A stretch of DNA of 40,660 nt from a virus. Both the position numbers and the translations under genes were made by a program. The DNA lies in the UHGV virus genome UHGV-0383422; one strand, given 5' to 3'. The notes under the pieces are model-generated. The model did no database searches. It had not been told where the DNA came from and saw nothing but the letters and a program-made list of their open reading frames with translations. Positions 8,048 to 40,481 of the stretch are shown here, piece after piece; positions within the stretch are counted from its first letter, which is position 1; every line of letters starts with the position of its first letter.

Positions 8048-8408
8048 ATCTTGCTTTCAGGTGATCAAGCGTTAAACGCCACCAACCAAATACGGTTGAT
8101 TTTGATATTTCTCCGCGTTTATCATTACCTTTGCGGTAAATTTACATCGCACTCCTCTTGTGCCATAGTAATCGGGCACTGGCAAAATCCAGTGCCGGGA
8201 TTGGCGTCCCGGGTTACTAAGTGGCGCATACCACGCCAGACGTGGTTTTTTTATGCGTTAAGCACAGCTATATCCGAATTATGGTGGGCTGGGCAGGGGT
8301 CCGAAAGGACGCCGGTACCACTTAGGCCGGTACGCCAACCTTGTCCAGTTCACCACCAGTAATTGGCGTTGCGGTGGTGATTAAAATCACTAAGTGGAGA
8401 TAACCACC

Positions 8409-26706: not shown

Positions 26707-26783
26707 GTGGCATTAGCTCAGTTGGACAGAGCAACCGCCTTCTAAGCGGTTGGTCGCAGGTTCGAATCCTGCATGCCACGCCA
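26707..26783 (+). tRNA. tRNA-Arg (anticodon UCU)
   Basis: Folded by hand: acceptor GTGGCAT/ATGCCAC, D-arm GCTC/GAGC, anticodon stem ACCGC/GCGGT with loop CTTCTAA (anticodon TCT), T-arm GCAGG-TTCGAAT-CCTGC, discriminator G and CCA. Confidence 0.9.
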
Positions 26784-27316: not shown

Positions 27317-27320
27317 CACC

Positions 27321-27332
27321 GTGACATGTCAC
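27321..27332. repeat. 12-bp perfect palindrome GTGACATGTCAC (copy 2 of 3)
   Basis: Exact palindrome four nt after the stop of 26984-27316. Confidence 0.6.
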
Positions 27333-27406
27333 AAACAGACAGCCTATGAGCTGGCTTTGTTTTATCCTCACCAGAGGATATCAACGACATTATCCCCACC
27401 AGCGGA

Positions 27407-28882
27407 TTAAGCATAGGGATCGTAATCTGTGATGGCCTTGCCTTGCTGGTTCTGCTGACCGGGAATTCGCAGACGCTTCGACACAGGGAACGCAAACGTC
27501 AGCAGTAGCGCATCGCCTTTACCAGGAGAACGCCCAAGTCGCTCTTTGATATCTTCCTTCGGTTCGATAACGATTTTACCGTCCACTCGAACTTTGTACT
27601 CTGCTGCCGACAGGTCGTCCGCTGTTTCCTGGTCATCCAGCATGCCGCCCAGCCTCAGCCATGTCTTGCATGAATTGAACATCTCCCCACGCTTGTTGAG
27701 CATCTGCGGGTCAGTAGACGCGCCACCGAACGGAACAAGTTGCCATGTACGACCCCATCCGTCACCGATTGACTTCAGACCGGTTCCGTAACCGAAGTCG
27801 ATGAACACCGCGTCAGCCTGATACTGGTCTTCAAAGTCAGCGATACGCTTCGCCATAATCAGATCGTCGGTAGTCTTGTTGCCAGTCCACAGCACCTTAC
27901 TGTGTAGCCCCTGCCGCAGGTATATCACCGCGTCATCAACGCCTGAATATGCCGGGTCAACACCGATTATCACCGGAGCATGCGCCACCTGCGCAGCGGT
28001 TACCACCCGTTTCATTGCCTCATCAGTAAGACCGGTAGGGATAAACTGCAATTCAGATGCATCAGGGAATATGCCGCGCACACGGATTTTAACGAAGTCG
28101 CTGTCTTCCCCGTAGTCATCAACCCATTTCTGCAACTGCTGTTTGTTAGTGCCTTCCACCGTTCGGCTGTCAATCTGCGCAGTTTTCCAGCGGTGTTTAT
28201 ATTTGCGGAAACATTCGCGGAAACGTCCGGTATTACGCGTCGGGTTTCCGAACGCCACCCAGATAATCTCAGTGTCTTCGTCCGTTAGTGCACCCTCGGC
28301 AACTTCCCACACCAGATCCGCAATGTTCGACGCTTCATCGAATACCACGATGATGCGTTTGCGCTCGTTGTGTAGTCCGGCGAATGCCTCAGTGTTGTGC
28401 TCAGACCAGGGGATTGCGTCAGCTCGCCACCGCTTGTCGTGTCCAGGATCATTGCTGTACATCGCGGTAGCGGTACAGGTAAACCAGTCTTTCGTGATAG
28501 CAAGGTTCGACCACTTGATAATTTCCGGCCAGGTCTTCGTTCGTAGCTGGTTGTCGGTGTTGGCGGTCACCACGACCTTACAATCCTCGCAAGTGGACAT
28601 GCCCCAGTTGATCAGCATTGAGATGAATGCGGATTTACCAATACCGTGACCCGAAGCACGTGCCAGCATAAGCGGCTGATAGCGCGTCTCTGGATTCTGC
28701 AGGTGATCACGTATCTCTCGGAACGCATCAGCCTGCCACTGACGTGGGCCGGTAGCATGTGCCAGTTCAGTCCCCTCTTCCCCCCACGGGAACGCATAGA
28801 GGGCATAGCCAAGCGGATCGTGAGTGAACCCTGCAATATCCTCGATCAACTGCTCTTCAGGAGATAACGCTGTATCTGTCAC
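27407..28882 (-). CDS. terminase large subunit
   Basis: 491 aa; Walker A-like ASGHGIGKS; acidic nuclease-region motifs; coupled to small subunit. Confidence 0.85.
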   Translation of the reverse strand: MTDTALSPEEQLIEDIAGFTHDPLGYALYAFPWGEEGTELAHATGPRQWQADAFREIRDHLQNPETRYQPLMLARASGHGIGKSAFISMLINWGMSTCEDCKVVVTANTDNQLRTKTWPEIIKWSNLAITKDWFTCTATAMYSNDPGHDKRWRADAIPWSEHNTEAFAGLHNERKRIIVVFDEASNIADLVWEVAEGALTDEDTEIIWVAFGNPTRNTGRFRECFRKYKHRWKTAQIDSRTVEGTNKQQLQKWVDDYGEDSDFVKIRVRGIFPDASELQFIPTGLTDEAMKRVVTAAQVAHAPVIIGVDPAYSGVDDAVIYLRQGLHSKVLWTGNKTTDDLIMAKRIADFEDQYQADAVFIDFGYGTGLKSIGDGWGRTWQLVPFGGASTDPQMLNKRGEMFNSCKTWLRLGGMLDDQETADDLSAAEYKVRVDGKIVIEPKEDIKERLGRSPGKGDALLLTFAFPVSKRLRIPGQQNQQGKAITDYDPYA

Positions 28883-29553
28883 TGATTACCATCCTGACGT
28901 TCTTTGAGTCGCTTCCTGGCTGCTGCTATGCGATCAGCAATTGTCACATTCACATTAACATCCAGACGTTCTTTGAACGCGTTGACATCAACATGCTTAC
29001 CAATCAGCTCAAGGTTCTTCACCTTGTCAGGCCATTTAATTTTTTTGAGGATTGTCTCTATCGAATCCTCGTTCATGTTCATGATGGTCGATGACAGATC
29101 AAAGCCACTAAGCGTAGTGCGCCAGATTTTCGGCCACTCACGGATTGGTTTAAGGCTCCCATCGTCGTTGAGGATGTCGATCACGTCCATCTGGTCGATC
29201 TCCACCAGGCGCATGAGAACGTAATCAGCACTGACGCGCATTCGTTTGTTGCGCTCCTCCATCAACTCGGCAATCCGTTTTTGAATGCGTTCATCGCGCA
29301 TCATGACACTGGCTTTAACTGCCGCTGTATTTGGGGAGAATCCTGCGTTAATCGCTGCCTGAGTCTGGTTTTCAGGCGTTTTGATGTATGACTGGCAATA
29401 AGCCTCCTGCATTGCTGTTAGTGGCTTAAATTGCGTTGATTTGCGTTTATAGGTTTTAGGTTCAGCAGGCATCATAACCACCGTGGTAATAGTTACCGTT
29501 GTGGTAATAGTACCATGCAAAATAAAGCCGCCATAGTTGGCGGCAGTATTCAA
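28879..29553 (-). CDS. terminase small subunit
   Basis: 224 aa; N-terminal HTH-like region (AMQEAYCQSYIKTPENQTQAAINAGFSPNTAAVKA); likelier start may be the internal MM at 29475, as the listed N-terminus is encoded by a direct-repeat region. Confidence 0.8.
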   Translation of the reverse strand: MNTAANYGGFILHGTITTTVTITTVVMMPAEPKTYKRKSTQFKPLTAMQEAYCQSYIKTPENQTQAAINAGFSPNTAAVKASVMMRDERIQKRIAELMEERNKRMRVSADYVLMRLVEIDQMDVIDILNDDGSLKPIREWPKIWRTTLSGFDLSSTIMNMNEDSIETILKKIKWPDKVKNLELIGKHVDVNAFKERLDVNVNVTIADRIAAARKRLKERQDGNQ

Positions 29554-29585
29554 AACCCATCAAATTCATCATGCATAATCTACTC

Positions 29586-29597
29586 GTGACATGTCAC
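29586..29597. repeat. 12-bp perfect palindrome GTGACATGTCAC (copy 3 of 3)
   Basis: Exact palindrome between the upstream gene stop and the small-terminase start region. Confidence 0.6.
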
Positions 29598-29941
29598 ACT
29601 ATTAATTTCGTTTCATGCCAGCCTTTAGTCACCCAGCATTGCGAGTCACCATTACACGGGCATGAATTAACTGGAACTCTCTCGCCGCACTTACCGCAAC
29701 ATTTTCTGCTGATCGATTTTATACGCCCGCGCACGCGTGCATCATCCTGGCGGATCAGTAACGCGATGTACTCGGCCATTTCATAGGGATCGCGACCAGG
29801 GCGCCGGGCGGCGCAGTTCCGCGCCAGCATTTCCTGCTCCTGCTTATCCAGCACCAGTTCAATTTTGCGCTCACCGGCGGCGGACTGCCGAGCGCGCTGC
29901 GCGGCTTTGCGTTCTGCGGGGGATTTAGCCACGAATCGCAC
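29594..29941 (-). CDS. hypothetical protein with Cys-rich C-terminus (start uncertain)
   Basis: Listed ORF starts at GTG; internal ATG (MLARN...) has AGGAG Shine-Dalgarno; C-terminus CCGKCGERVPVNSCPCNGDSQCW; GC-rich segment. Confidence 0.4.
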   Translation of the reverse strand: MRFVAKSPAERKAAQRARQSAAGERKIELVLDKQEQEMLARNCAARRPGRDPYEMAEYIALLIRQDDARVRGRIKSISRKCCGKCGERVPVNSCPCNGDSQCWVTKGWHETKLIV

Positions 29942-30047
29942 TCCACGCCAGATTGATTAATGACTCCCAGGTAATATAAACCCGGATACCAGCAGCCAGG
30001 CCGAAACCAATCACCATGGCATAAAGCAGAGCGTTGCACTTGTTCAT
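29925..30047 (-). CDS. small membrane peptide (40 aa)
   Basis: MNKCNALLYAMVIGFGLAAGIRVYITWESLINLAWSAIRG; AGGAGGTGA Shine-Dalgarno; ATG overlaps upstream stop. Confidence 0.45.
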   Translation of the reverse strand: MNKCNALLYAMVIGFGLAAGIRVYITWESLINLAWSAIRG

Positions 30048-30829
30048 CACTTCACCTCCTGCGGCGGTTCTGGTAGCGGCATCCAGAACAAGGCGTTCCC
30101 TAACCACGATAAAGTGCCGTCGCTCAACTCCACGTATTCCCCTTGTACCTGTCCTGCCATATACTCGCCGTGCTTTGAATAAATTAAAATCCAATCATCT
30201 TGAGGGGGCATTCGCTCACTACAGCTTATCCAACCATCCGGAGTCACCGGAAGCGAGAACGGCAGCACATCTCTGTGAACAAGTTTTTGCTGTGACAGGT
30301 TATCCAGAACTTTCTGTACTGCTGCATCACCGAATACACCAAGCGCATCTGCCATAACTCCTACAACCTGATAAGCCTCAGCGCATACCGTGGATAAACC
30401 ATCCGGAATTACCGGAGAGTTGCCGGGTTCTTTAATGTGCAAGCGAGGCTCACCATCTTTTGGCTCAGGCCACTGGCGCTCCATGTTGATCTTCAATTTA
30501 TCTTCCATAGCAACGGTAATTTCAGCATCGCTGATGCCAGCACGGCGCTGTGCATCCCACAACAGAAACTGCATATCAGCCCACTCGCTAAGATCGTCTG
30601 GTTCGGCTGCGGCTTCCAGTGCCTCTTTTGAGAGGTGTTTCAGTGGACCAATGGGGCCAACGCAGCCAAATGTGGAGTCAGACCATTTGGCATGCTCGTG
30701 GCGAATCTGTTCGCGTTCCAGTGATGCCAGTGCAATTCGTGCTAGTTCCATTTGTTCGCCACGAGTAAGCCCGTTTTCAAGCGGATTTTTAATGAACAAT
30801 TCAATACGTTCTTTGGTAATAGTGGTCAT
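30047..30829 (-). CDS. hypothetical protein (nin-region type)
   Basis: 260 aa; early-operon position; no motif recognised with confidence. Confidence 0.5.
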   Translation of the reverse strand: MTTITKERIELFIKNPLENGLTRGEQMELARIALASLEREQIRHEHAKWSDSTFGCVGPIGPLKHLSKEALEAAAEPDDLSEWADMQFLLWDAQRRAGISDAEITVAMEDKLKINMERQWPEPKDGEPRLHIKEPGNSPVIPDGLSTVCAEAYQVVGVMADALGVFGDAAVQKVLDNLSQQKLVHRDVLPFSLPVTPDGWISCSERMPPQDDWILIYSKHGEYMAGQVQGEYVELSDGTLSWLGNALFWMPLPEPPQEVK

Positions 30830-30839
30830 GTGTTACTCC

Positions 30840-31103
30840 TTAACCCGCAGTGCTTTCAACTGATGAGGGGAACAAAATCTTTTCATCAAACCCTGCATTC
30901 ATATCATTGACAGCAACACACCAATCCATTGACGAACGATTATCAAGAGCCTCCATGATTTCATCCATGCGGCGCAGGTCATACAGGTAAATGCTTTTAT
31001 CGCCAATGGTGTAAAAACCAATTTTTTTCGGTGATGGGCAGCGATCAAGAACGTCCTGTAATTCGCTCAACCATGCTTGTTCTTTTTTTGTCAAAGTTGC
31101 CAT
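30840..31103 (-). CDS. hypothetical protein
   Basis: 87 aa; start lies directly after the conserved junction repeat. Confidence 0.5.
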   Translation of the reverse strand: MATLTKKEQAWLSELQDVLDRCPSPKKIGFYTIGDKSIYLYDLRRMDEIMEALDNRSSMDWCVAVNDMNAGFDEKILFPSSVESTAG

Positions 31104-31104
31104 A

Positions 31105-31596
31105 TCACTCTCCTTTGATGCGAATGCCAGTGGTACTCATTCTCCTGATTTCCCAGAGCACACGAGGAACACCACCGTTTCCGACCGGATCGCGTTTACT
31201 CCGCAGGGCGACGCTTGATTCCGCCCAGCTTTTTCTTGGAGGAAGCTCTTTCACACGAACAAAACCAGCTGCGCGGAGAGATGCTCCTGATTCATCTGCC
31301 TGGGTGTACGTAATACAACGTTGATAACCCATAGCCTTTGCTGCCCGCCAGACAGCACCATAAAGCGCGCTGTTAGCGTTGCGTTCTCCTGTGGTACATG
31401 TGCGATTTACTTCAAGCGTTAATCCATCGTCCAAATGTCGTGCAACAGGTCTACCGGCTGTCGCCACACCTATCAATTCTCCGGCATCATTTCTCAGACC
31501 AATGCTGAATTTATGCCCCACCGGGGGTTTATTGTGTCGGTGATGTCTGGATATAAACGCCTTCGCAACACGAAGAGTAACCGGTGAAATTTGCAT
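31105..31596 (-). CDS. hypothetical protein with His/Arg-rich N-terminus; ends GIRIKGE
   Basis: Start set at ATG 31596 with GGAGAG Shine-Dalgarno (listed ORF begins at GTG); C-terminal heptapeptide shared with the upstream gene. Confidence 0.5.
   Translation of the reverse strand: MQISPVTLRVAKAFISRHHRHNKPPVGHKFSIGLRNDAGELIGVATAGRPVARHLDDGLTLEVNRTCTTGERNANSALYGAVWRAAKAMGYQRCITYTQADESGASLRAAGFVRVKELPPRKSWAESSVALRSKRDPVGNGGVPRVLWEIRRMSTTGIRIKGE
31106..31130. repeat. 25-bp direct repeat (junction copy 1) CACTCTCCTTTGATGCGAATGCCAG
   Basis: Identical 25-mer at 31600-31624; encodes C-terminal GIRIKGE plus stop plus Shine-Dalgarno of next gene. Confidence 0.7.
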
Positions 31597-31598
31597 TC

Positions 31599-32285
31599 TC
31601 ACTCTCCTTTGATGCGAATGCCAGCGGCACGGGAATCATTCCATCGCTTTACTTCTTCACGAATTACGTCAATGCATTCTTTCGAATCCATTAGGTAATC
31701 TTCATCAAAAAGCCTTTCCTGTTCGTTTTCTATCGCAACAATGATTGCTTCAACTAACTTTTGTGCCTGAGAACCACTTTCTAACTCTGCAATGCGCTTC
31801 TCTGCGGCTTCCAGCTTCTCGCGCATATCGTCAACGTACTCGACCAGAGATCCGCCAGCAGGAATTTCGCACTCCTCGACCAGTTGGAAGTAGATATCAG
31901 CTGCGGCCCGTGTGTTGCTATGCCTAGCGTCGCCCATCTCACCTTCACGAAGAGCATCGCGTTCGGCGGTAAGATTGGCTATTTTGCTGTCTTTGCCTTC
32001 CAGCTCAACGCGAAGCCTCCCAACCGTAAGCGCAATATCCTCGTTCTCCTGGTCGCGGCGTTTGATGTATTGCAGGTTTCTTTCCCGTTCATCCAGCAGC
32101 GTCAGCACGGTTTCTGGTCCGGTCAGAAATTTGAAGGCGTTGAGCGCATCAATATCCACACCATAATCTTTAAGTTCCTGTTCACTTAACAAATCATCAT
32201 CAGCTGGCAACATTAACAGGCGTTCCATTGCTGGAATTGCACGTTCTGCCGCCTCACGCAGTGCCTGATAGTTAATTTTGGTCAT
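31599..32285 (-). CDS. Ea22-like early protein
   Basis: 228 aa, acidic coiled-coil-like; C-terminal GIRIKGE; prophage early-region position. Confidence 0.55.
   Translation of the reverse strand: MTKINYQALREAAERAIPAMERLLMLPADDDLLSEQELKDYGVDIDALNAFKFLTGPETVLTLLDERERNLQYIKRRDQENEDIALTVGRLRVELEGKDSKIANLTAERDALREGEMGDARHSNTRAAADIYFQLVEECEIPAGGSLVEYVDDMREKLEAAEKRIAELESGSQAQKLVEAIIVAIENEQERLFDEDYLMDSKECIDVIREEVKRWNDSRAAGIRIKGE
31600..31624. repeat. 25-bp direct repeat (junction copy 2)
   Basis: Identical to 31106-31130. Confidence 0.7.
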
Positions 32286-32286
32286 A

Positions 32287-32586
32287 TCACATCACCCTGA
32301 AGCCGTTGCATTTACGTAAAAAATCGCAGATATAGCCCTTCATTTTTTCGTGCCAATCTCGATCATTCCCATTGCACCAACCATCAGGTGGAGTCCAGTT
32401 TTCTATCAGAGCAGCCATTTTCTTTGCTTTCGCCGGAGTAGCTGTTGCGGTATCGCAGTAATGACGAGTGTCAACCAACGTATCCATACCATCGATATCA
32501 AGTACGCAAAACCATGTGTGATTCGGCATTTCAACAGATGGTATTTGTTGCCCGCGTCGACGTTTATCAATAAGACATACAGTCAC
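32287..32586 (-). CDS. hypothetical protein
   Basis: 99 aa; coupled in early operon. Confidence 0.45.
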   Translation of the reverse strand: MTVCLIDKRRRGQQIPSVEMPNHTWFCVLDIDGMDTLVDTRHYCDTATATPAKAKKMAALIENWTPPDGWCNGNDRDWHEKMKGYICDFLRKCNGFRVM

Positions 32587-33711: not shown

Positions 33712-34488
33712 TTACTTGATAAATCCTGCCGCCTTTCCCCGCCTGTATTCCTCCATCAGCCACTGCGCCGGTGTTATTCCCCCAAGGGTGGCGGCGTTAG
33801 GCATGCACCCGAAACTTCGCCCTGGTGGATGGTAAACGTCTCTCCCTGTGTCCGGAGGTGTACTCATGGGCTCTGGCTTTGCCTGTATGCTGATCACCGG
33901 ATCGGGTATCTGCTGTCCGGAAGCCACCTTTTTCGCCCAATCATCGAGCAGCCTGCGCGCGTGTTTCTCAACCTCACTCTCGCTAAGCTGGCGCTGATAC
34001 ATTGCACGACGGGTATCACATACGACCCAGTACATAACCGGATGCCGCCACGGGAATCTTTCGGGACCACCAGGATATAAACTTTTTTCCTTGCTGTACC
34101 GGTGAAACTCCGCCATCACATCGTCAATGGTGACGCCAAGAACCATCTTGCTGTCTTTGCACCACTTGATGAATTGCCCTGGCGACGGCCAGAACGGAGA
34201 TTCACTGGCGCGGGCGTGGCGCATACCAGCGTTAACCTGTTCCATTGTAGTGATCCCATTCTCCAGAAACGCAAGCATCCATTGCTTACGGAATTCATTA
34301 AGTTTGTTCTGCTCCCTTATGGTCGAAACGCTTGCAGGAAATGCAGCCTGTAACTGGACAAATAGTTCATTGAAAATTCTAGCAACCTGCTCCTTTTTGC
34401 CATTGCTGTCACGCCGCTCTTCATGCACAGCAACACCATGCTCACGTAAGCGATCGTACTCATTGAGAAGTTCTGGAGTTGATTTCAT
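33712..34488 (-). CDS. replication protein (P-like helicase-loader candidate)
   Basis: 258 aa, downstream of and overlapping the initiator-like gene; no Walker A; assignment by position. Confidence 0.5.
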   Translation of the reverse strand: MKSTPELLNEYDRLREHGVAVHEERRDSNGKKEQVARIFNELFVQLQAAFPASVSTIREQNKLNEFRKQWMLAFLENGITTMEQVNAGMRHARASESPFWPSPGQFIKWCKDSKMVLGVTIDDVMAEFHRYSKEKSLYPGGPERFPWRHPVMYWVVCDTRRAMYQRQLSESEVEKHARRLLDDWAKKVASGQQIPDPVISIQAKPEPMSTPPDTGRDVYHPPGRSFGCMPNAATLGGITPAQWLMEEYRRGKAAGFIK

Positions 34489-35302
34489 CCCACACCCCTT
34501 CTATCCAGTCAGTGTTATTCCAGTCAAGCTCATCGCTTTTCCCGGCATTTTTTGATTTTCCCCTGATATGATTTACGTGCCTGGCGAATTTTTGTTCCCA
34601 CTGAACCTGCGTGAACACTTTGCCCTCAGCCATCCAGTAATCCCGGAATGCAGCAAGTTCAGCAGGTGTAAATTCCGGTTCCGGCAGGGCCGTTCCCCAC
34701 AGCGCAGCACGCCGCCGAAAATCTGGCGACGGTAGCCAGCCATCTGTCATCGGAAATTTCCCGATGGGTTCACTCAGGCCATCCAGAAATTCAGGTTCTG
34801 CCACCTGCAACGGCGTACTGTTCGCTTCACTGGTCGGAGCACCCTCGCGCACGTGCGCTATGTGTGGGGTTTTATATATATCTTCCTCTTCCTCTGGTAA
34901 CTCCTTTTGTAACGCTGTTGGCGTTACTTTTTGCGTTACTCGTTTTCTATGCTCTGCCACTCTTCTATTCGTAAGTGCACGTTTTTTCGATGATTCTCCA
35001 TTATGTCGCTCAAAGTTTGGAAGAATTAGTTTGCCGTCATGATAAGCAAGCCATCCGACGCTAATGAGGGCGTCAGCAAATCCTGTAATAAAAGCGAGTC
35101 TATCAAGTACTCCTTTTGTAACGCTGCCAGCGTTACCGTCTATTGTTTGCTGGTCAGCCCATGCCCATATACGAACCAGCTTTCCAAGAACAGCATCTGG
35201 ATCAATACCCAGAATTTCTGCTATCTGAAAAATTTCAGGTTTATCAGGAGTGATAACTTCAACCTTAATCCAGCTGCTTGCCATAGGTTTCCCCTCTTGC
35301 AC
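34460..35302 (-). CDS. replication initiator / replisome organizer (O-like) with DnaT-like C-terminal region
   Basis: 280 aa; contains internal iteron-like repeats in different reading frames plus an AT-rich tract. Confidence 0.6.
   Translation of the reverse strand: MQEGKPMASSWIKVEVITPDKPEIFQIAEILGIDPDAVLGKLVRIWAWADQQTIDGNAGSVTKGVLDRLAFITGFADALISVGWLAYHDGKLILPNFERHNGESSKKRALTNRRVAEHRKRVTQKVTPTALQKELPEEEEDIYKTPHIAHVREGAPTSEANSTPLQVAEPEFLDGLSEPIGKFPMTDGWLPSPDFRRRAALWGTALPEPEFTPAELAAFRDYWMAEGKVFTQVQWEQKFARHVNHIRGKSKNAGKSDELDWNNTDWIEGVWDEINSRTSQ
34895..35138. repeat. candidate origin: iteron-like repeats (GTAACGC/GCGTTAC) and AT-rich tract inside the initiator gene
   Basis: 26-bp repeat TCCTTTTGTAACGCTG..GCGTTAC at 34901-34926 and 35111-35136, each an inverted repeat; extra GCGTTAC at 34932-34938; TTTTATATATAT at 34870-34881. 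Confidence 0.5.
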
Positions 35303-36903: not shown

Positions 36904-37203
36904 ATGAACGTTAATCAGCAGAAAAATCTTCAAAAAATCATGCTGGCATTCGACAAGGACTACCGCCTGTCAGAACAGCTATATGACCGACAAGTTGAAC
37001 TGATTGAGAGCATCCGACTTCATCAACTGTCCTCAACTTTCGACGTTGTAACAGGCAAAGGCGTTCGTCAGGAAGTGCTGGAGGCTGCTAAAGACAGCCC
37101 TGAGTTCGAAGAACTGATGGATGCCTACCGGCGCGAGGCAATGGCAATTATAGCGCGCTGGGATCTGGCGGATCAGCTTGATGGGCAGAGGGACGCGGCA
37201 TGA
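36904..37203 (+). CDS. hypothetical protein
   Basis: 99 aa from ATG 36904 with GGGAGGG Shine-Dalgarno; coupled to exonuclease gene. Confidence 0.5.
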   Translation: MNVNQQKNLQKIMLAFDKDYRLSEQLYDRQVELIESIRLHQLSSTFDVVTGKGVRQEVLEAAKDSPEFEELMDAYRREAMAIIARWDLADQLDGQRDAA

Positions 37204-38099
37204 TGCGGAACGCTGGAATCATGGATAGAACAAAATACATCGGAGGAAGCGATGTTGCAGGGATTCTTGGAATTAGCCCATGGCGCACCCCGCTTGAGGT
37301 TTATCTGGATAAGGTCCAGCCACGTGTCAAACCAGTAGACCCAAGCAAGCAGAAAGTTTTCACGCGTGGCCAGCGTATGGAGCCATACGTAATAGACCTG
37401 CTTTCTGAGGAAACAGGGATGGAAATCGTTCATCGCGGAAACCGCTATATCCACCGTGATTACGATTTTATTGCAGCTGAGATCGATGCAGAAGCAGCGT
37501 CAGGCGAGAACATTGAGATCAAAACAGTTAGTCCGTTCAAAGCCAAAGAATGGGGAGAAATCCAGACAGATGCAATTCCTGTGCATTACACGGCCCAGGC
37601 CATGCACGGGTTGATGGTTACAAACAAACAGGTATGCGTTTTCGGTGTGCTTATCGGTGGCGACGACTTCCGAATCTATCGGGTTGAGCGTGATGAAGAA
37701 ACTATCCAGGCGATCTTAGAAAAAGAAATCGCTTTCTGGGACCGAGTGAAAAATCTTAACCCGCCGGAAGCTACCAGCGTAAGCGATGTATCGCTGATGT
37801 TTGAGAAAGATGCCGGGACAAGTATCGAGGCTGACGGAAAGGCACTCGCACTATTCAACGATCTACGAGACATGAAATCACGCAGAAAATCACTGGAAGA
37901 AGAAATAGCTATATCAGAAGAGAAGCTGAAGATGTACATGCAAGAGCACTCAGTCCTGACCCTGGACGGAAAGCCGCTCTGCACATGGAAATCTCAGATC
38001 AGCAACAGATTCGACCAGAAGCTATTCCAGTCAGTACACCCTGAGTTATTCGAAAAATTCAAAACAACAACGACACAACGCGTCTTCAGAATGAAGTAA
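37200..38099 (+). CDS. YqaJ-type recombination exonuclease
   Basis: 299 aa; N-terminal YIGGSDVAGILGISPWRTPLEVY motif; directly upstream of RecT-like gene. Confidence 0.8.
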   Translation: MMRNAGIMDRTKYIGGSDVAGILGISPWRTPLEVYLDKVQPRVKPVDPSKQKVFTRGQRMEPYVIDLLSEETGMEIVHRGNRYIHRDYDFIAAEIDAEAASGENIEIKTVSPFKAKEWGEIQTDAIPVHYTAQAMHGLMVTNKQVCVFGVLIGGDDFRIYRVERDEETIQAILEKEIAFWDRVKNLNPPEATSVSDVSLMFEKDAGTSIEADGKALALFNDLRDMKSRRKSLEEEIAISEEKLKMYMQEHSVLTLDGKPLCTWKSQISNRFDQKLFQSVHPELFEKFKTTTTQRVFRMK

Positions 38100-38108
38100 G
38101 GAGAAAAA

Positions 38109-39131
38109 ATGTCTATCAATGCACTTAAGGCAGCGGCTACCGGTAACCAAGTTGCACATCATAATGAGAAACCAACAACTCTGGCCGGACTTCTGGCAGA
38201 CCCAAAAATTAAAGCTCAGATGGCTTTGGCACTTCCAAAGCACATGACAGCAGACCGTCTGGCGCGCATAGCAACCACAGAGATCAGAAAGGTTCCAAAA
38301 CTTGCATCATGCGACCAAGCCAGCTTCCTGGGGGCAATTATGCAATGTGCCCAATTGGGTCTTGAACCAGGCGGAGCTCTTGGACACGCTTACCTGATAC
38401 CGTTCGACAAACGCCAGAAAGTAAATGGAAGATGGGAAACCGTATCTACAGAAGCACAGCTGATTATCGGCTATCGCGGAATGATTGACCTTGCCCGCCG
38501 CTCTGGGCAGATCCTGAGTATCTCGGCTCGTACCGTACATACAAACGACAAATTCAGCTACTCATACGGCCTGGAAGAAACGCTCGAGCATTTACCTTGC
38601 GAAACAGGTGACCGCGGAGAATTAACGCACGTTTACGCCGTTGCACGACTGAAAGATGGCGGAGTCCAATTTGAAGTTATGAGCCGGGCAGACGTTGAGA
38701 AAGTTCGTGCACTGAGCAAAGCCGGTAGCAGTGGCCCATGGGTTGATCACTTCGATGAGATGGCTAAAAAAACAGTAATTCGCCGACTGTTCAAATATCT
38801 TCCTGTTTCTATTGAAATGCAGAAGGCTGTTGTTATGGATGAGCGCGCTGAAGCTGGACTTAGCCAAGATAACGCAGCTGTTATCACTGGTGAATATTCC
38901 GTAGTTGACGATGAGCGTCAACACCTGTCGCCAATTTCAGATTCAGAACGAGAAGAAGCTCGAGAATATATCATCGCGATACTTAATAGCCTGGATCCAT
39001 CTGCTGAAGATGCAAAAACGATGTTCAAGCGCGCTGAAAATGAAATTAACACCATGGCTGAAAAGCTCGGTGATGAATATCACCAAAAATTCATGATGAC
39101 GCTTAACGATATGCGTCCAGAATTCGAGTAA
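38109..39131 (+). CDS. RecT-family single-strand annealing recombinase
   Basis: 340 aa; RecT-like core (GLEPGG...AYLIPF...IIGYRG); paired with exonuclease. Confidence 0.8.
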   Translation: MSINALKAAATGNQVAHHNEKPTTLAGLLADPKIKAQMALALPKHMTADRLARIATTEIRKVPKLASCDQASFLGAIMQCAQLGLEPGGALGHAYLIPFDKRQKVNGRWETVSTEAQLIIGYRGMIDLARRSGQILSISARTVHTNDKFSYSYGLEETLEHLPCETGDRGELTHVYAVARLKDGGVQFEVMSRADVEKVRALSKAGSSGPWVDHFDEMAKKTVIRRLFKYLPVSIEMQKAVVMDERAEAGLSQDNAAVITGEYSVVDDERQHLSPISDSEREEAREYIIAILNSLDPSAEDAKTMFKRAENEINTMAEKLGDEYHQKFMMTLNDMRPEFE

Positions 39132-39538: not shown

Positions 39539-39838
39539 GTGAGAAAGTTAAGCCGACTTGAAAAATATCACATGAATAAGGTTTCAATGCGCAGTCCGTC
39601 AAAGATTGTCGCCGTTACTCCTGCGGCGATAGAGATCGAAAAACGCGCGATTGAAAGAGAGAAAAAAGGGCAATTCCGCATTGCCGCTCACCTTTGGCTT
39701 CAGTGTATGGATGTTGCTTCTGGTGATGTTGAACGTGCAAGGATCGCGGTTCGCAGGGACCAATGTATCACAAAAGGTAACGGCCTTCGCCGTGGCGACT
39801 ATAGCGGCATAGGATGTTGTGGGGTGGTTTATGACTAA
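39539..39838 (+). CDS. hypothetical protein
   Basis: 99 aa; coupled to methyltransferase gene. Confidence 0.45.
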   Translation: MRKLSRLEKYHMNKVSMRSPSKIVAVTPAAIEIEKRAIEREKKGQFRIAAHLWLQCMDVASGDVERARIAVRRDQCITKGNGLRRGDYSGIGCCGVVYD

Positions 39839-40481
39839 GAAATACACACTAATCTATGCAGATCCACCCTGGGTATACCGGGACAAAGCCGCAGATGGTA
39901 ATCGCGGTGCCGGTTTTAAATATCCGGTTATGAGTGTGCTGGATATCTGCCGCCTTCCTGTGTGGGATTTGGCCGATGAAAACTGTCTGTTGGCCATGTG
40001 GTGGGTGCCAACACAACCACTCGAAGCACTAAAAGTTGTTGAAGCCTGGGGATTCCGTCTGATGACGATGAAGGGCTTCACGTGGATAAAATGTGGTAGT
40101 CGACAACCAGATAAACTGGTTATGGGTATGGGACACATGACTCGCGCCAATAGTGAAGATTGCCTGTTTGCGGTAAAGGGAAAACTACCTACGCGCATTA
40201 ATGCAGGGATCGTTCAGTCATTTACCGCACCGCGGCTTGAGCATTCAAGAAAGCCAGATATCGTTCGTGAAAAACTTGTGCAATTATTAGGCGATATTTC
40301 TCGCATTGAACTGTTCGCCCGCCAGACGTCTCATGGCTTTGATGTTTGGGGTAATCAGTGCGAAGACCCGGCAGTGCAACTACACCCTGGATACGCGTTG
40401 GATATTGGCGGATTAACAAATGCATTCAGCAATGCTCCGCTGTCACCAACAGACATCCAGGGGCGGGAGCGTGCTGCATGA
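39831..40481 (+). CDS. DNA N6-adenine methyltransferase, MT-A70 family
   Basis: 216 aa from ATG 39831; catalytic DPPW motif in YADPPWVYRD. Confidence 0.8.
   Translation: MTKKYTLIYADPPWVYRDKAADGNRGAGFKYPVMSVLDICRLPVWDLADENCLLAMWWVPTQPLEALKVVEAWGFRLMTMKGFTWIKCGSRQPDKLVMGMGHMTRANSEDCLFAVKGKLPTRINAGIVQSFTAPRLEHSRKPDIVREKLVQLLGDISRIELFARQTSHGFDVWGNQCEDPAVQLHPGYALDIGGLTNAFSNAPLSPTDIQGRERAA

What the first reader, a model, noticed from the sequence alone, without database searches (positions are those of the whole stretch)
31106..31624. Identical 25-bp junction repeat ending two unrelated early genes
CACTCTCCTTTGATGCGAATGCCAG occurs at 31106-31130 and 31600-31624. On the coding strand each copy encodes the last residues GIRIKGE, the stop codon and the Shine-Dalgarno of the next gene. 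Two otherwise unrelated proteins therefore share their final heptapeptide. This is the signature of linker sequences that mediate modular gene swapping.
Basis: seen in the sequence. Interest (0 to 1): 0.35.

Follow-up and report, generated by a model that had tools for sequence, protein, structure and literature searches.

The report
Shared gene-end linker for phage gene swapping
A 26-base sequence that ends two unrelated prophage genes is a widespread junction in E. coli and Salmonella phages, where many different genes are joined in many combinations; it is a clean example of the already proposed linker model of phage mosaicism, not a new kind of element.

Summary
The repeat is exact for 26 bp (31105-31130 and 31599-31624) and no copies are expected by chance. 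On the minus strand each copy encodes GIRIKGE, a TGA stop and the AAGGAG Shine-Dalgarno of the next gene. The two genes are an Ead/Ea22-family protein and an XF1762 (Mom-like) protein, and they share only the heptapeptide.

- The exact 25-mer occurs in at least 120 viral contigs. It joins 14 unrelated upstream flanks to 20 unrelated downstream flanks in 53 combinations.
- Samples chosen through the flanking genes, not the repeat, give the same picture.
- Breakpoints of phage matches fall on the two copies.
- Some relatives have the same Ea22 end, one linker and the 87-aa gene, with the 494-bp XF1762 cassette precisely absent.
- Diverged XF1762 homologues lack the tail.

The island is sharply bounded (median shared run 28 bp). 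This is about the minimal pairing length reported for Red-beta-type recombinases, and the window encodes RecT and a YqaJ exonuclease.

The element also offers an explanation for the unexplained K/R-G-E end of Ea22 proteins: it is the embedded ribosome-binding site. The concept dates from 1978 and 2001, so novelty is modest. That recombination actually occurs at the linker is inferred, not shown.

The parts
31599..31624 (-). Linker copy A. It carries the last 7 codons (GIRIKGE) and the TGA of the Ea22-family gene, and the SD (GGAG at 31607-31604) for the XF1762-family gene whose ATG is at 31596.
   Evidence: Exact 26-bp repeat. GGAGAGTGA..ATG architecture located.
31105..31130 (-). Linker copy B. 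It carries the last 7 codons (GIRIKGE) and the TGA of the XF1762-family gene, and the SD (GGAG at 31113-31110) for the 87-aa gene whose ATG is at 31103.
31599..32285 (-). Ead/Ea22-family gene, 228 aa, ending ...RAAGIRIKGE. It is mosaic: N-terminal part, coiled-coil island (about 31997-32111), variable C-terminal domain and linker tail.
   Evidence: PF13935, E=4.5e-26. PHROG 250. Internal breakpoint peaks at 31980-32114.
31105..31596 (-). XF1762-family (Mom-like) gene, 163 aa. This is the cassette lying between the two linker copies. The tail MSTTGIRIKGE is an add-on that diverged homologues lack.
   Evidence: NCBIfam NF045478, E=5e-61, covering residues 3-136 only. PHROG 1384 'Mom-like DNA modification protein'. 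Pfam Mom scores 22.4 bits, below its 27.1 cutoff. Homologues at 81-87% identity end ...VLWEIRR(MK/GV/AV)*.
30840..31103 (-). 87-aa gene of unknown function, immediately downstream of linker copy B.
   Evidence: PHROG 1714, E=2.4e-50. No Pfam or NCBIfam match.
30047..30829 (-). dATP/dGTP pyrophosphohydrolase + DUF551 gene. Its conserved 5' segment (about 30705-30839) is another breakpoint hotspot.
   Evidence: PF04447, E=9e-42, and PF04448. HSP-end peaks.
37200..39131 (+). YqaJ-like exonuclease (37200-38099) and RecT-family single-strand annealing protein (38109-39131). This is the prophage's own recombination module and a candidate catalyst of linker crossovers.
   Evidence: PF09588, E=2.7e-23, and PF03837, E=4.4e-57.

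Best explanation
The repeat is a conserved gene-boundary 'linker' of enterobacterial temperate phages, and it has two roles.

1. Translation. Its 3' half (AAAGGAGAG-TGA-n-ATG) is the ribosome-binding site of the downstream gene, embedded in the last codons of the upstream gene. The stop lies 1-2 nt from the next start, so whatever gene sits downstream is translated, probably by coupling.

2. Recombination. The whole island of 26-33 bp is a patch of perfect identity shared by otherwise unrelated genomes. It can be used for homologous crossovers by phage single-strand-annealing recombinases (RecT here; Red-beta and Erf elsewhere) or by RecA. This can happen between co-resident prophages or between a prophage and an infecting phage. 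Each crossover re-pairs everything upstream with everything downstream, in frame and with expression intact.

In this window two copies flank the XF1762 cassette. The arrangement differs from 'empty-site' relatives (same Ea22 end, one linker, 87-aa gene) by exactly one cassette plus one linker. That is what a crossover between linkers at different positions would give, for gain or for loss.

Shown: the repeat, its coding content, its distribution, the reassorted flanks, the sharp bounds, the empty site and the tail-less XF1762 homologues.
Inferred: that crossovers occur in the linker, which enzyme acts, and that translation is coupled.
For: - Distribution: at least 120 viral contigs carry the exact 25-mer. 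The 33-mer matches 385 phage records across lambda, HK620, Stx phages, P22-like phages and the P1-like SJ46, and 3,032 of 5,426 E. coli genomes, with a median of 2 and up to 11 places per genome.
- Reassortment: 14 upstream and 20 downstream flank classes occur in 53 combinations among 117 junctions.
- Samples not chosen by the linker:
  - Of 79 loci found through the window's Ea22 C-terminal domain, 56 carry the exact 26-mer, and 33 distinct 24-nt downstream starts follow the stop codon across the 79 loci.
  - Of 79 loci found through the 87-aa gene, 19 have the canonical linker and about 31 have close variants, behind at least 8 different upstream genes.
- Breakpoints:
  - 24 of the 40 listed phage matches end inside a copy. 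The match in Wanchaivirus PDP110P2 covers only 31095-31620, which is the cassette with both linkers.
  - HSP-end peaks fall at 31095-31139 and 31605-31634.
- Empty site: L088, L183, L184 and L189 lack the cassette precisely.
- The tail is an add-on: diverged XF1762 homologues end at ...EIRR(MK/GV/AV)*, and the NCBIfam model stops at residue 136.
- Sharp island: the exact run shared by junctions with unrelated flanks on both sides has minimum 26, median 28 and mean 29.7 bp. Conservation falls to background within about 7 nt on the 5' side and about 5 nt on the 3' side.
- Length against known requirements: the minimal efficient pairing segment is 23-27 bp for Red-beta and 31-34 bp for RecA (PMC3945230). 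The window encodes RecT and YqaJ.
- Crossovers inside the linker are plausible: two variable sites 7 nt apart occur in all four combinations, and single upstream classes carry both alleles.
- Translation role: the stop-to-start spacer is 1 nt at 110 of the 112 junctions where a start codon was found; the window's copy A has 2 nt. The linker is always in frame at the end of a long ORF. A minimal ...KGE* core recurs on unrelated tails.
Against: - No recombination event was observed. The pattern shows only that breakpoints and the island coincide.
- 26-28 bp is at the very threshold of efficient pairing, so rates could be low.
- The region has other breakpoint hotspots that are longer conserved islands: the Ea22 coiled-coil segment and the N-terminal segment of the DUF550-type genes. 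The linker is one of several exchange points, not a unique one.
- 25 of the 79 junctions upstream of the 87-aa gene use an unrelated sequence, ATAAGGAAAACTGAT, so the linker is not required for joining.
- Selection on the ribosome-binding site could by itself explain conservation of the 3' 12 nt.
- Sampling of viral contigs is redundant and dominated by E. coli, so the combination counts are not independent events.
Confidence: 0.72

Rival explanations
1. Functional convergence only. The shared sequence is conserved because it must supply a ribosome-binding site and stop for the next gene, or because the GIRIKGE peptide is useful. Mosaic joints arise by illegitimate recombination followed by selection at gene boundaries (the Hendrix model), and the linker plays no part in recombination.
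For: - The stop-to-start spacer is 1 nt at almost every junction where a start codon was found.
- The linker is always in frame.
- The ...KGE* core (AAAGGAGAGTGA) recurs on otherwise different tails such as AMLHGKGE, NHLRTKGE and ILRSNKGE.
- All Ea22 proteins end in K/R-G-E (PMC7093339).
- The illegitimate-recombination model is well established (PMC3233612).
Against: - The 5' 14 nt (CTGGCATTCGCATC) have no ribosome-binding role. Yet in the sample drawn through the Ea22 C-terminal domain, not through the linker, 56 of 79 loci carry the exact 26-mer, synonymous positions included.
- The peptide is not conserved as a peptide. Common variants are nonsynonymous: DIRIKGE, DIGIKGE, GIGIKGE, NIGIKGE, GIRTKGE.
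- Random joints would not repeatedly fall in frame at the 5' edge of the same 26 bp inside ORFs of at least 14 different sequences.
- Identity on both partners is, by definition, a substrate for homologous exchange.
Confidence: 0.15
2. A local event in this genome: a target-site duplication made by insertion of a mobile XF1762 cassette (by a transposon or homing endonuclease), or a leftover of a tandem duplication of the Ea22 3' end.
For: - Direct repeats flank a single gene. Empty-site alleles exist.
- One contig has an HNH endonuclease gene carrying the same tail (L064).
- The repeat extends to 47 nt at 85% identity.
Against: - The same 26-mer ends many unrelated genes in phages that lack XF1762.
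- In most XF1762-bearing contigs the upstream copy is a diverged variant (VNIGIKGE, or AAGIKEESE) and not an exact duplicate. Only 5 of 77 have the canonical 26-mer on both sides.
- There is no transposase, no terminal inverted repeats, and 26 bp is far longer than known target duplications.
- The HNH case is a single contig whose upstream junction is not the linker.
Confidence: 0.04
3. A cis-acting nucleic-acid element recognised by a protein or folded as RNA, for example a site-specific recombination site like an integron attC, a regulatory RNA or a terminator.
For: High nucleotide-level conservation of a short sequence at cassette boundaries resembles attC-bounded cassettes.
Against: - No Rfam family matches there.
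- Folding of 91 nt around each copy is no better than shuffles, with z = -0.80 and 0.00.
- The sequence is not palindromic.
- No integrase or recombinase gene is consistently adjacent. The genomic contexts differ: lambda exo-xis, this replication-to-terminase region, and a P1-like plasmid prophage.
Confidence: 0.04

Closest known systems
Conserved boundary ('linker') sequences of lambdoid phages (Susskind & Botstein 1978 modular theory; Clark, Inwood, Cloutier & Dhillon 2001, HK620 genome, J Mol Biol 311:657)
   Same: It is a short conserved sequence at a gene border, shared by a subset of related phages, with non-homologous modules on either side, and it is proposed to target homologous recombination (as summarised in PMC2327257, PMC3233612 and PMC3528268). 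HK620 itself carries this linker at the hkaG to hkaF junction.
   Different: I could not read Clark et al. (not held), so I cannot say whether this particular 26-mer was among their examples. Added here: the scale (over half of complete E. coli genomes), the reach beyond lambdoid phages into P1-like plasmid prophages and into a different operon, capture by non-Ea22 genes, and the overlap with the ribosome-binding site.
The K/R-G-E ('+GE') C-terminal motif of Ea22 proteins (Dydecka et al. 2020, PMC7093339) and the mosaic Ea22 domain structure (PMC10834534)
   Same: It is the same gene family and the same terminal residues. Those authors noted that Ea22 proteins with unrelated C-terminal domains all end in +GE and stated that its significance is unknown. 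They also describe portable C-terminal domains.
   Different: The motif is explained here at the DNA level: AAA GGA GAG TGA is the AAGGAG ribosome-binding site plus stop for the next gene. It lies inside a 26-33 nt island that non-Ea22 genes (XF1762, HNH endonuclease) have also acquired.
Relaxed homologous recombination by Rad52-like phage recombinases (Martinsohn et al. 2008, PMC2327257; De Paepe et al. 2014, PMC3945230)
   Same: It provides the enzymology. Red-beta, RecT and Erf recombine short or diverged homologies between phages and resident prophages, with a minimal efficient pairing segment of 23-27 bp for Red-beta. The window encodes RecT and YqaJ.
   Different: Those experiments used homologies of hundreds of bp containing short identical runs. 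An isolated 26-33 bp island flanked by unrelated DNA on both sides has not been tested here.
Integron gene cassettes bounded by attC sites
   Same: There is a functional analogy: single promoterless genes, bounded by a recurring short sequence, are stacked in one operon and reassorted.
   Different: There is no integrase, no attC-like palindrome or fold, and the boundary lies inside the upstream ORF. Exchange would be by general homologous recombination, not site-specific recombination.
'Junction' sequences flanking shared regions in staphylococcal PVL phages (reviewed in PMC3528268)
   Same: They are conserved sequences at module borders, proposed as substrates for homologous exchange.
   Different: Different hosts and sequences. 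No embedded ribosome-binding site or shared peptide tail is described in the passage read.

Membership tests
Lambdoid-phage boundary/linker sequence (Susskind-Botstein / Clark model) | Short conserved sequence located at a gene or module boundary | tested here: met
   The 26-bp exact island covers the last 7 codons, the stop and the next gene's ribosome-binding site. Conservation falls to background within about 7 nt on the 5' side and about 5 nt on the 3' side.
Lambdoid-phage boundary/linker sequence (Susskind-Botstein / Clark model) | Shared among related phages, with non-homologous sequence on either side in different combinations | tested here: met
   14 upstream and 20 downstream classes in 53 combinations. 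Samples chosen through the flanking genes agree.
Lambdoid-phage boundary/linker sequence (Susskind-Botstein / Clark model) | Mosaic breakpoints coincide with the sequence | tested here: met
   24 of 40 listed phage matches end within a copy. HSP-end peaks fall at both copies. The empty-site allele is bounded by the linker.
Lambdoid-phage boundary/linker sequence (Susskind-Botstein / Clark model) | Long enough to support homologous recombination | tested here: inconclusive
   The shared run has minimum 26 and median 28 bp. Reported minimal efficient pairing segments are 23-27 bp for Red-beta and 31-34 bp for RecA (PMC3945230). This is at threshold for phage recombinases and below it for RecA in most pairs.
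Lambdoid-phage boundary/linker sequence (Susskind-Botstein / Clark model) | Recombination actually occurs within it | not testable with these tools
   Only indirect evidence: all four combinations of two variable sites 7 nt apart inside the linker. Crosses are needed.
Ead/Ea22-like protein family (PF13935), gene 31599..32285 | Match to the family profile above its curated cutoff | tested here: met
   92.5 bits against a cutoff of 27, E=4.5e-26, residues 3-169.
XF1762 family (NCBIfam NF045478), gene 31105..31596 | Match to the equivalog model above its cutoff | tested here: met
   204.7 bits against a cutoff of 50, E=5e-61, residues 3-136. The tail lies outside the model.
Mom protein family (PF25680), gene 31105..31596 | Match above Pfam's gathering score | tested here: not met
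   22.4 bits against a cutoff of 27.1. PHROG 1384 'Mom-like' matches at E=4.4e-42. I therefore call it Mom-like, not Mom.
Translationally coupled gene junction | Shine-Dalgarno core 5-9 nt upstream of the start, inside the upstream ORF, with the stop codon within a few nt of the start | tested here: met
   AAGGAG lies 6-7 nt before the ATG. The spacer after TGA is 1 nt at 110 of the 112 junctions where a start codon was found, and 2 nt at the window's copy A.
Translationally coupled gene junction | Downstream translation depends on upstream translation | not testable with these tools
   Needs reporter assays.
Transposon or insertion target-site duplication | Duplicate created at insertion, specific to the inserted element, with a transposase or terminal inverted repeats | tested here: not met
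   The same sequence ends many unrelated genes in phages without the cassette. Only 5 of 77 XF1762 genes have exact copies on both sides. There is no transposase between the copies.
Integron attC-bounded cassette | Imperfect palindromic attC that folds as a hairpin, with an IntI integrase nearby | tested here: not met
   No fold better than shuffles, no Rfam hit, and no integrase in the neighbourhood.

The most novel reading that the evidence does not exclude
The 26-33 nt island is a self-perpetuating cassette boundary that needs no dedicated recombinase. It fuses a ribosome-binding site and stop (which guarantees expression of any gene placed downstream) to a just-sufficient homology patch for RecT, Red-beta or Erf. 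On this reading it defines an integron-like array of accessory genes that is shared and reshuffled among lambdoid, P22-like and P1-like phages and between different operons. It could then be used as a sequence anchor to harvest early accessory genes, which are largely uncharacterised and may include DNA-modification or anti-defence functions. It would also serve as a natural, minimal test bed to settle the dispute between linker-targeted and illegitimate recombination, in phage lambda itself.
Probability: 0.3. Interest if true: 0.55.

Novelty: new member of a known kind. Interest (0 to 1): 0.4.

Why it matters
Whether phage mosaicism comes from homologous exchange at short conserved boundary sequences or from random illegitimate joints filtered by selection has been debated since 1978.

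This linker is an unusually clean and abundant natural case for the first mechanism:
- It is in lambda itself and in more than half of complete E. coli genomes, often in several copies per cell.
- It is sharply bounded.
- Its length is right at the pairing threshold of phage annealing proteins.

That makes the question experimentally tractable: recode the linker, delete recT or red-beta, and count recombinants.

It also offers a simple explanation for the unexplained K/R-G-E terminus of Ea22 proteins. It warns that this C-terminal 'motif' is a DNA-level by-product and not a protein feature. It also marks a hotspot where mostly uncharacterised early accessory genes are swapped: XF1762/Mom-like, an HNH endonuclease, ClpX-zinc-finger and DUF551 proteins, and many proteins with no family match.

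Tried and rejected
- Chance repeat: rejected, 0 expected.
- RNA element: no Rfam family at the site, and folding is no better than shuffles.
- Shared ancestry of the two proteins: rejected. BLASTP finds only the heptapeptide and the two genes belong to different families.
- Target-site duplication or transposon: rejected on distribution.
- Homing-endonuclease insertion: only one HNH-bearing contig (L064), and its upstream junction is not the linker.
- Taxon range from one genome per species: the scan gave 36 hits, but 33 are the phage-lambda Ea22 context in non-enteric assemblies, which is contamination. The scan says little beyond Escherichia and Shimwellia.
- Naming the cassettes: Pfam and NCBIfam found nothing for most downstream genes.
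- Reading Clark et al. 2001 to see whether this exact sequence is already described: the paper is not held. A full-text search for GIRIKGE found no paper.
- No structure prediction or large protein search was run. They would not bear on a DNA-level junction.
Full report
**1. The observation**

The 25-mer CACTCTCCTTTGATGCGAATGCCAG is present exactly twice, at 31106-31130 and 31600-31624. No match occurred in any of 100 shuffles, even with three mismatches allowed. The exact identity is really 26 bp (31105-31130 and 31599-31624). It lies in a 47-nt stretch of 85% identity, and the two copies are 494 bp apart.

The genes are on the minus strand.
- Copy A ends the 228-aa gene 31599..32285 (...RAAGIRIKGE, TGA). 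After two bases comes the ATG at 31596 of a 163-aa gene.
- Copy B ends that 163-aa gene (...STTGIRIKGE, TGA at 31107-31105). After one base comes the ATG at 31103 of an 87-aa gene.
- GGAG lies 6-7 nt before each start.

**2. What the genes are**

- The first gene is an Ead/Ea22-family protein (PF13935, E=4.5e-26).
- The second is an XF1762-family protein (NCBIfam NF045478, E=5e-61, residues 3-136). It also matches PHROG 1384 'Mom-like DNA modification protein'. Pfam's Mom model scores below its cutoff.
- BLASTP of the two proteins aligns only GIRIKGE.
- Downstream follow the 87-aa gene (PHROG 1714 only) and a dATP/dGTP pyrophosphohydrolase + DUF551 gene.

The operon context is: small terminase (28879-29553) <- accessory genes <- DUF1064 <- lambda-P-like replication protein (33712-34488) <- DnaT-like protein (34460-35302). 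On the other arm lie a divergent repressor, a YqaJ exonuclease (37200-38099), RecT (38109-39131) and an MT-A70 methylase. The annotated relative L121 has the same layout.

So in this prophage the linker-bearing genes sit between the replication genes and the terminase. They are not in the exo-xis region.

**3. Distribution**

- A 33-mer (CGCGCCG + the 26-mer) matches 385 of 50,697 phage records. These include lambda (Ea22), HK620 (hkaG), many Stx phages, Salmonella P22-like phages ('EaA') and the P1-like Punavirus SJ46.
- It also matches 3,032 of 5,426 complete E. coli genomes, with a median of 2 and up to 11 places per genome. 426 places are on plasmids.
- In HK620 the linker joins hkaG to hkaF in the leftward operon near int. 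In SJ46 it joins gp094 to gp093.
- The scan of one genome per species gave 36 hits. Of these, 33 are the lambda Ea22 context in non-enteric assemblies, including contigs of about 48.4-48.5 kb. This is lambda contamination, not biology. The non-lambda hits are an Escherichia sp., Shimwellia and a Collinsella MAG contig.

**4. Are mosaic breakpoints there?**

Yes.
- I anchored the 122 exact copies (120 contigs plus the window's two) and clustered 200 nt on each side. This gave 14 upstream classes and 20 downstream classes, joined in 53 different combinations among 117 junctions.
- Upstream genes include several Ea22 C-terminal-domain variants (one is lambda's), the XF1762 gene, an HNH endonuclease and several ORFs with no family. 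Downstream genes include DUF551 proteins, a ClpX-zinc-finger protein, zinc-ribbon proteins and many unknowns.
- Loci found through the window's Ea22 C-terminal domain, independently of the linker (n=79), carry the exact 26-mer in 56 cases. Across the 79 loci, 33 distinct 24-nt downstream starts follow the stop codon.
- Loci found through the 87-aa gene (n=79) have the canonical linker in 19 and close variants in about 31, behind at least 8 different upstream genes. Another 25 use an unrelated junction.
- In a megablast of 30800-32300 against phages, no record covers 80% of the query. 24 of the 40 listed matches end inside one of the copies. One (Wanchaivirus PDP110P2) matches only 31095-31620, which is the cassette with both linkers.
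- HSP ends against the fetched loci peak at 31095-31139 and 31605-31634.
- Four contigs have the same Ea22 3' end, one linker and the 87-aa gene, with the 494-bp cassette precisely missing.

**5. The tail is an add-on**

XF1762 homologues at 81-87% identity end ...VLWEIRR(MK/GV/AV)* and have no GIRIKGE. The E. coli lambdoid versions read on through MSTTGIRIKGE*. The linker is always in frame at the end of a long ORF, while the other two frames are closed. About half of the upstream ORFs carry the Ea22 coiled-coil motif. The tail is therefore probably native to Ea22 genes and was captured by the others.

**6. Nucleotide or protein constraint?**

- The island is sharply bounded. Junctions with unrelated flanks on both sides share an exact run with minimum 26, median 28 and mean 29.7 nt.
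- The common variants are nonsynonymous: DIRIKGE, DIGIKGE, GIGIKGE, NIGIKGE, GIRTKGE. The peptide itself is therefore not conserved.
- The 3' core AAAGGAGAGTGA recurs on otherwise different tails (...GKGE*...TKGE*...NKGE*).
- The spacer to the next start is 1 nt at almost every junction where a start codon was found. This points to a translation-initiation or coupling role for the 3' half.
- This offers an explanation for the remark of Dydecka et al. that all Ea22 proteins end in K/R-G-E with 'significance unknown' (PMC7093339).
- The 5' 14 nt have no such role, yet the exact 26-mer, synonymous positions included, is present in 56 of the 79 loci sampled through the Ea22 C-terminal domain.
- Two variable sites 7 nt apart inside the linker occur in all four combinations, and single upstream classes carry both alleles. 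This is as expected if crossovers resolve inside the linker, although recurrent mutation is not excluded.
- There is no Rfam hit and no fold better than shuffles.

**7. Mechanism**

The best-supported reading is a dual-purpose junction. One part is an embedded ribosome-binding site and stop that keep any downstream gene expressed. The other is a 26-33 bp identity patch used for homologous crossovers between co-resident or co-infecting phages.

The length matches the minimal efficient pairing segment reported for Red-beta (23-27 bp). It is below that for RecA (31-34 bp) in most pairs (PMC3945230). The prophage encodes RecT and YqaJ. E. coli genomes commonly hold several copies.

The two copies in this window bracket one cassette. 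Gain or loss by crossover between linkers at different positions would produce exactly the difference seen from the empty-site relatives.

The steps 'crossover occurs here', 'RecT does it' and 'translation is coupled' are inferences.

**8. Limits**

- The linker is one of several exchange points in this region. The others are the Ea22 coiled-coil island at 31980-32114, the Ea22 start, and the 5' segment of the DUF550-type gene at 30705-30839.
- Some junctions do without it.
- The contig sample is redundant.

**9. Comparison with what is known**

This is the boundary-sequence ('linker') model of Susskind & Botstein and of Clark et al. 2001, as summarised in PMC2327257, PMC3233612 and PMC3528268. 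HK620, the phage of Clark et al., carries this very linker. I could not read that paper, and no held paper contains 'GIRIKGE'.

I therefore file it as a new, well-documented member of a known kind. The useful additions are:
- its scale;
- its spread into P1-like phages and into a different operon;
- its capture by non-Ea22 genes;
- its overlap with the ribosome-binding site;
- the proposed explanation of the +GE motif.

**10. Verdict**

Interest is moderate (0.4).

Noticed in passing
L281-L316 (genome-contig hits): 33 of 36 species-representative genomes holding the 26-mer are non-enteric (Streptomyces, Bacillus, Shewanella, Prevotella and others). All have the phage-lambda Ea22 context, often on short or low-coverage contigs or on contigs of about 48.4-48.5 kb. 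This looks like lambda DNA contamination of public assemblies.
   Followed up: partly
loci L201-L280, junction upstream of XF1762 homologues; also L319-L398: There is a second, related linker family, GCCGCTGGCATCAAGGAGGAGTCTGAGTGATG (tail AAGIKEESE*, stop overlapping the start). It precedes diverged XF1762 genes behind several unrelated upstream genes. It shares GCCGCTGGCAT and an AGGAG core with the first family. A further variant has the tail RAAGIRI(N/K)GGE*.
   Followed up: partly
loci L122-L200, junction upstream of the 87-aa gene: An unrelated junction, ATAAGGAAAACTGAT-ATG, precedes the 87-aa gene in 25 of 79 loci. It is shared by two different upstream genes (...NPYKEN* and ...RINKEN*), so it may be another small linker.
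   Followed up: no
window 30705-30839 and 31980-32114: Two longer conserved islands are also strong breakpoint hotspots in related contigs. One is the 5' segment of the dATP/dGTP-pyrophosphohydrolase/DUF551-type genes (MTTITKERI...). The other is the Ea22 coiled-coil segment (LLDERERN.QYIKRRDQENEDIALTVG).
   Followed up: partly
L064 (IMGVR_UViG_2925891887_000006): An HNH_3/AP2-type endonuclease gene ends with the same linker tail (...GVAGIRIKGE*). Its upstream junction is a different SD-in-tail overlap (...RKGGKQ*, GTGA).
   Followed up: partly
window 8176-8360 and 26707-26780: Rfam matches above the gathering score: isrK Hfq-binding RNA (8176-8252) directly followed by C4 antisense RNA (8277-8360), and a tRNA (26707-26780). 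A tRNA-Arg is annotated between the portal and terminase genes of relative L121.
   Followed up: no
window 34900-34927 and 35109-35136: A 28-nt direct repeat (89% identity, 209 bp apart) lies inside the DnaT-like replication gene. It may be origin iterons.
   Followed up: no
window 27320-27333 and 29585-29598: An exact 14-nt near-palindrome, CGTGACATGTCACA, occurs twice, 2,265 bp apart. One copy lies at the 3' end of ORF 29594-29941, just upstream of the small terminase gene.
   Followed up: no
L121 7638-8177 (NZ_CM142779.1): In a close relative, PGAP annotates the Ea22-like gene and a neighbouring gene as pseudogenes ('incomplete; missing C-terminus').
   Followed up: no
window 39819-40481: An MT-A70-family methyltransferase gene lies downstream of RecT on the leftward arm. 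The same prophage thus carries two candidate DNA-modification genes, this one and the XF1762/Mom-like cassette.
   Followed up: no
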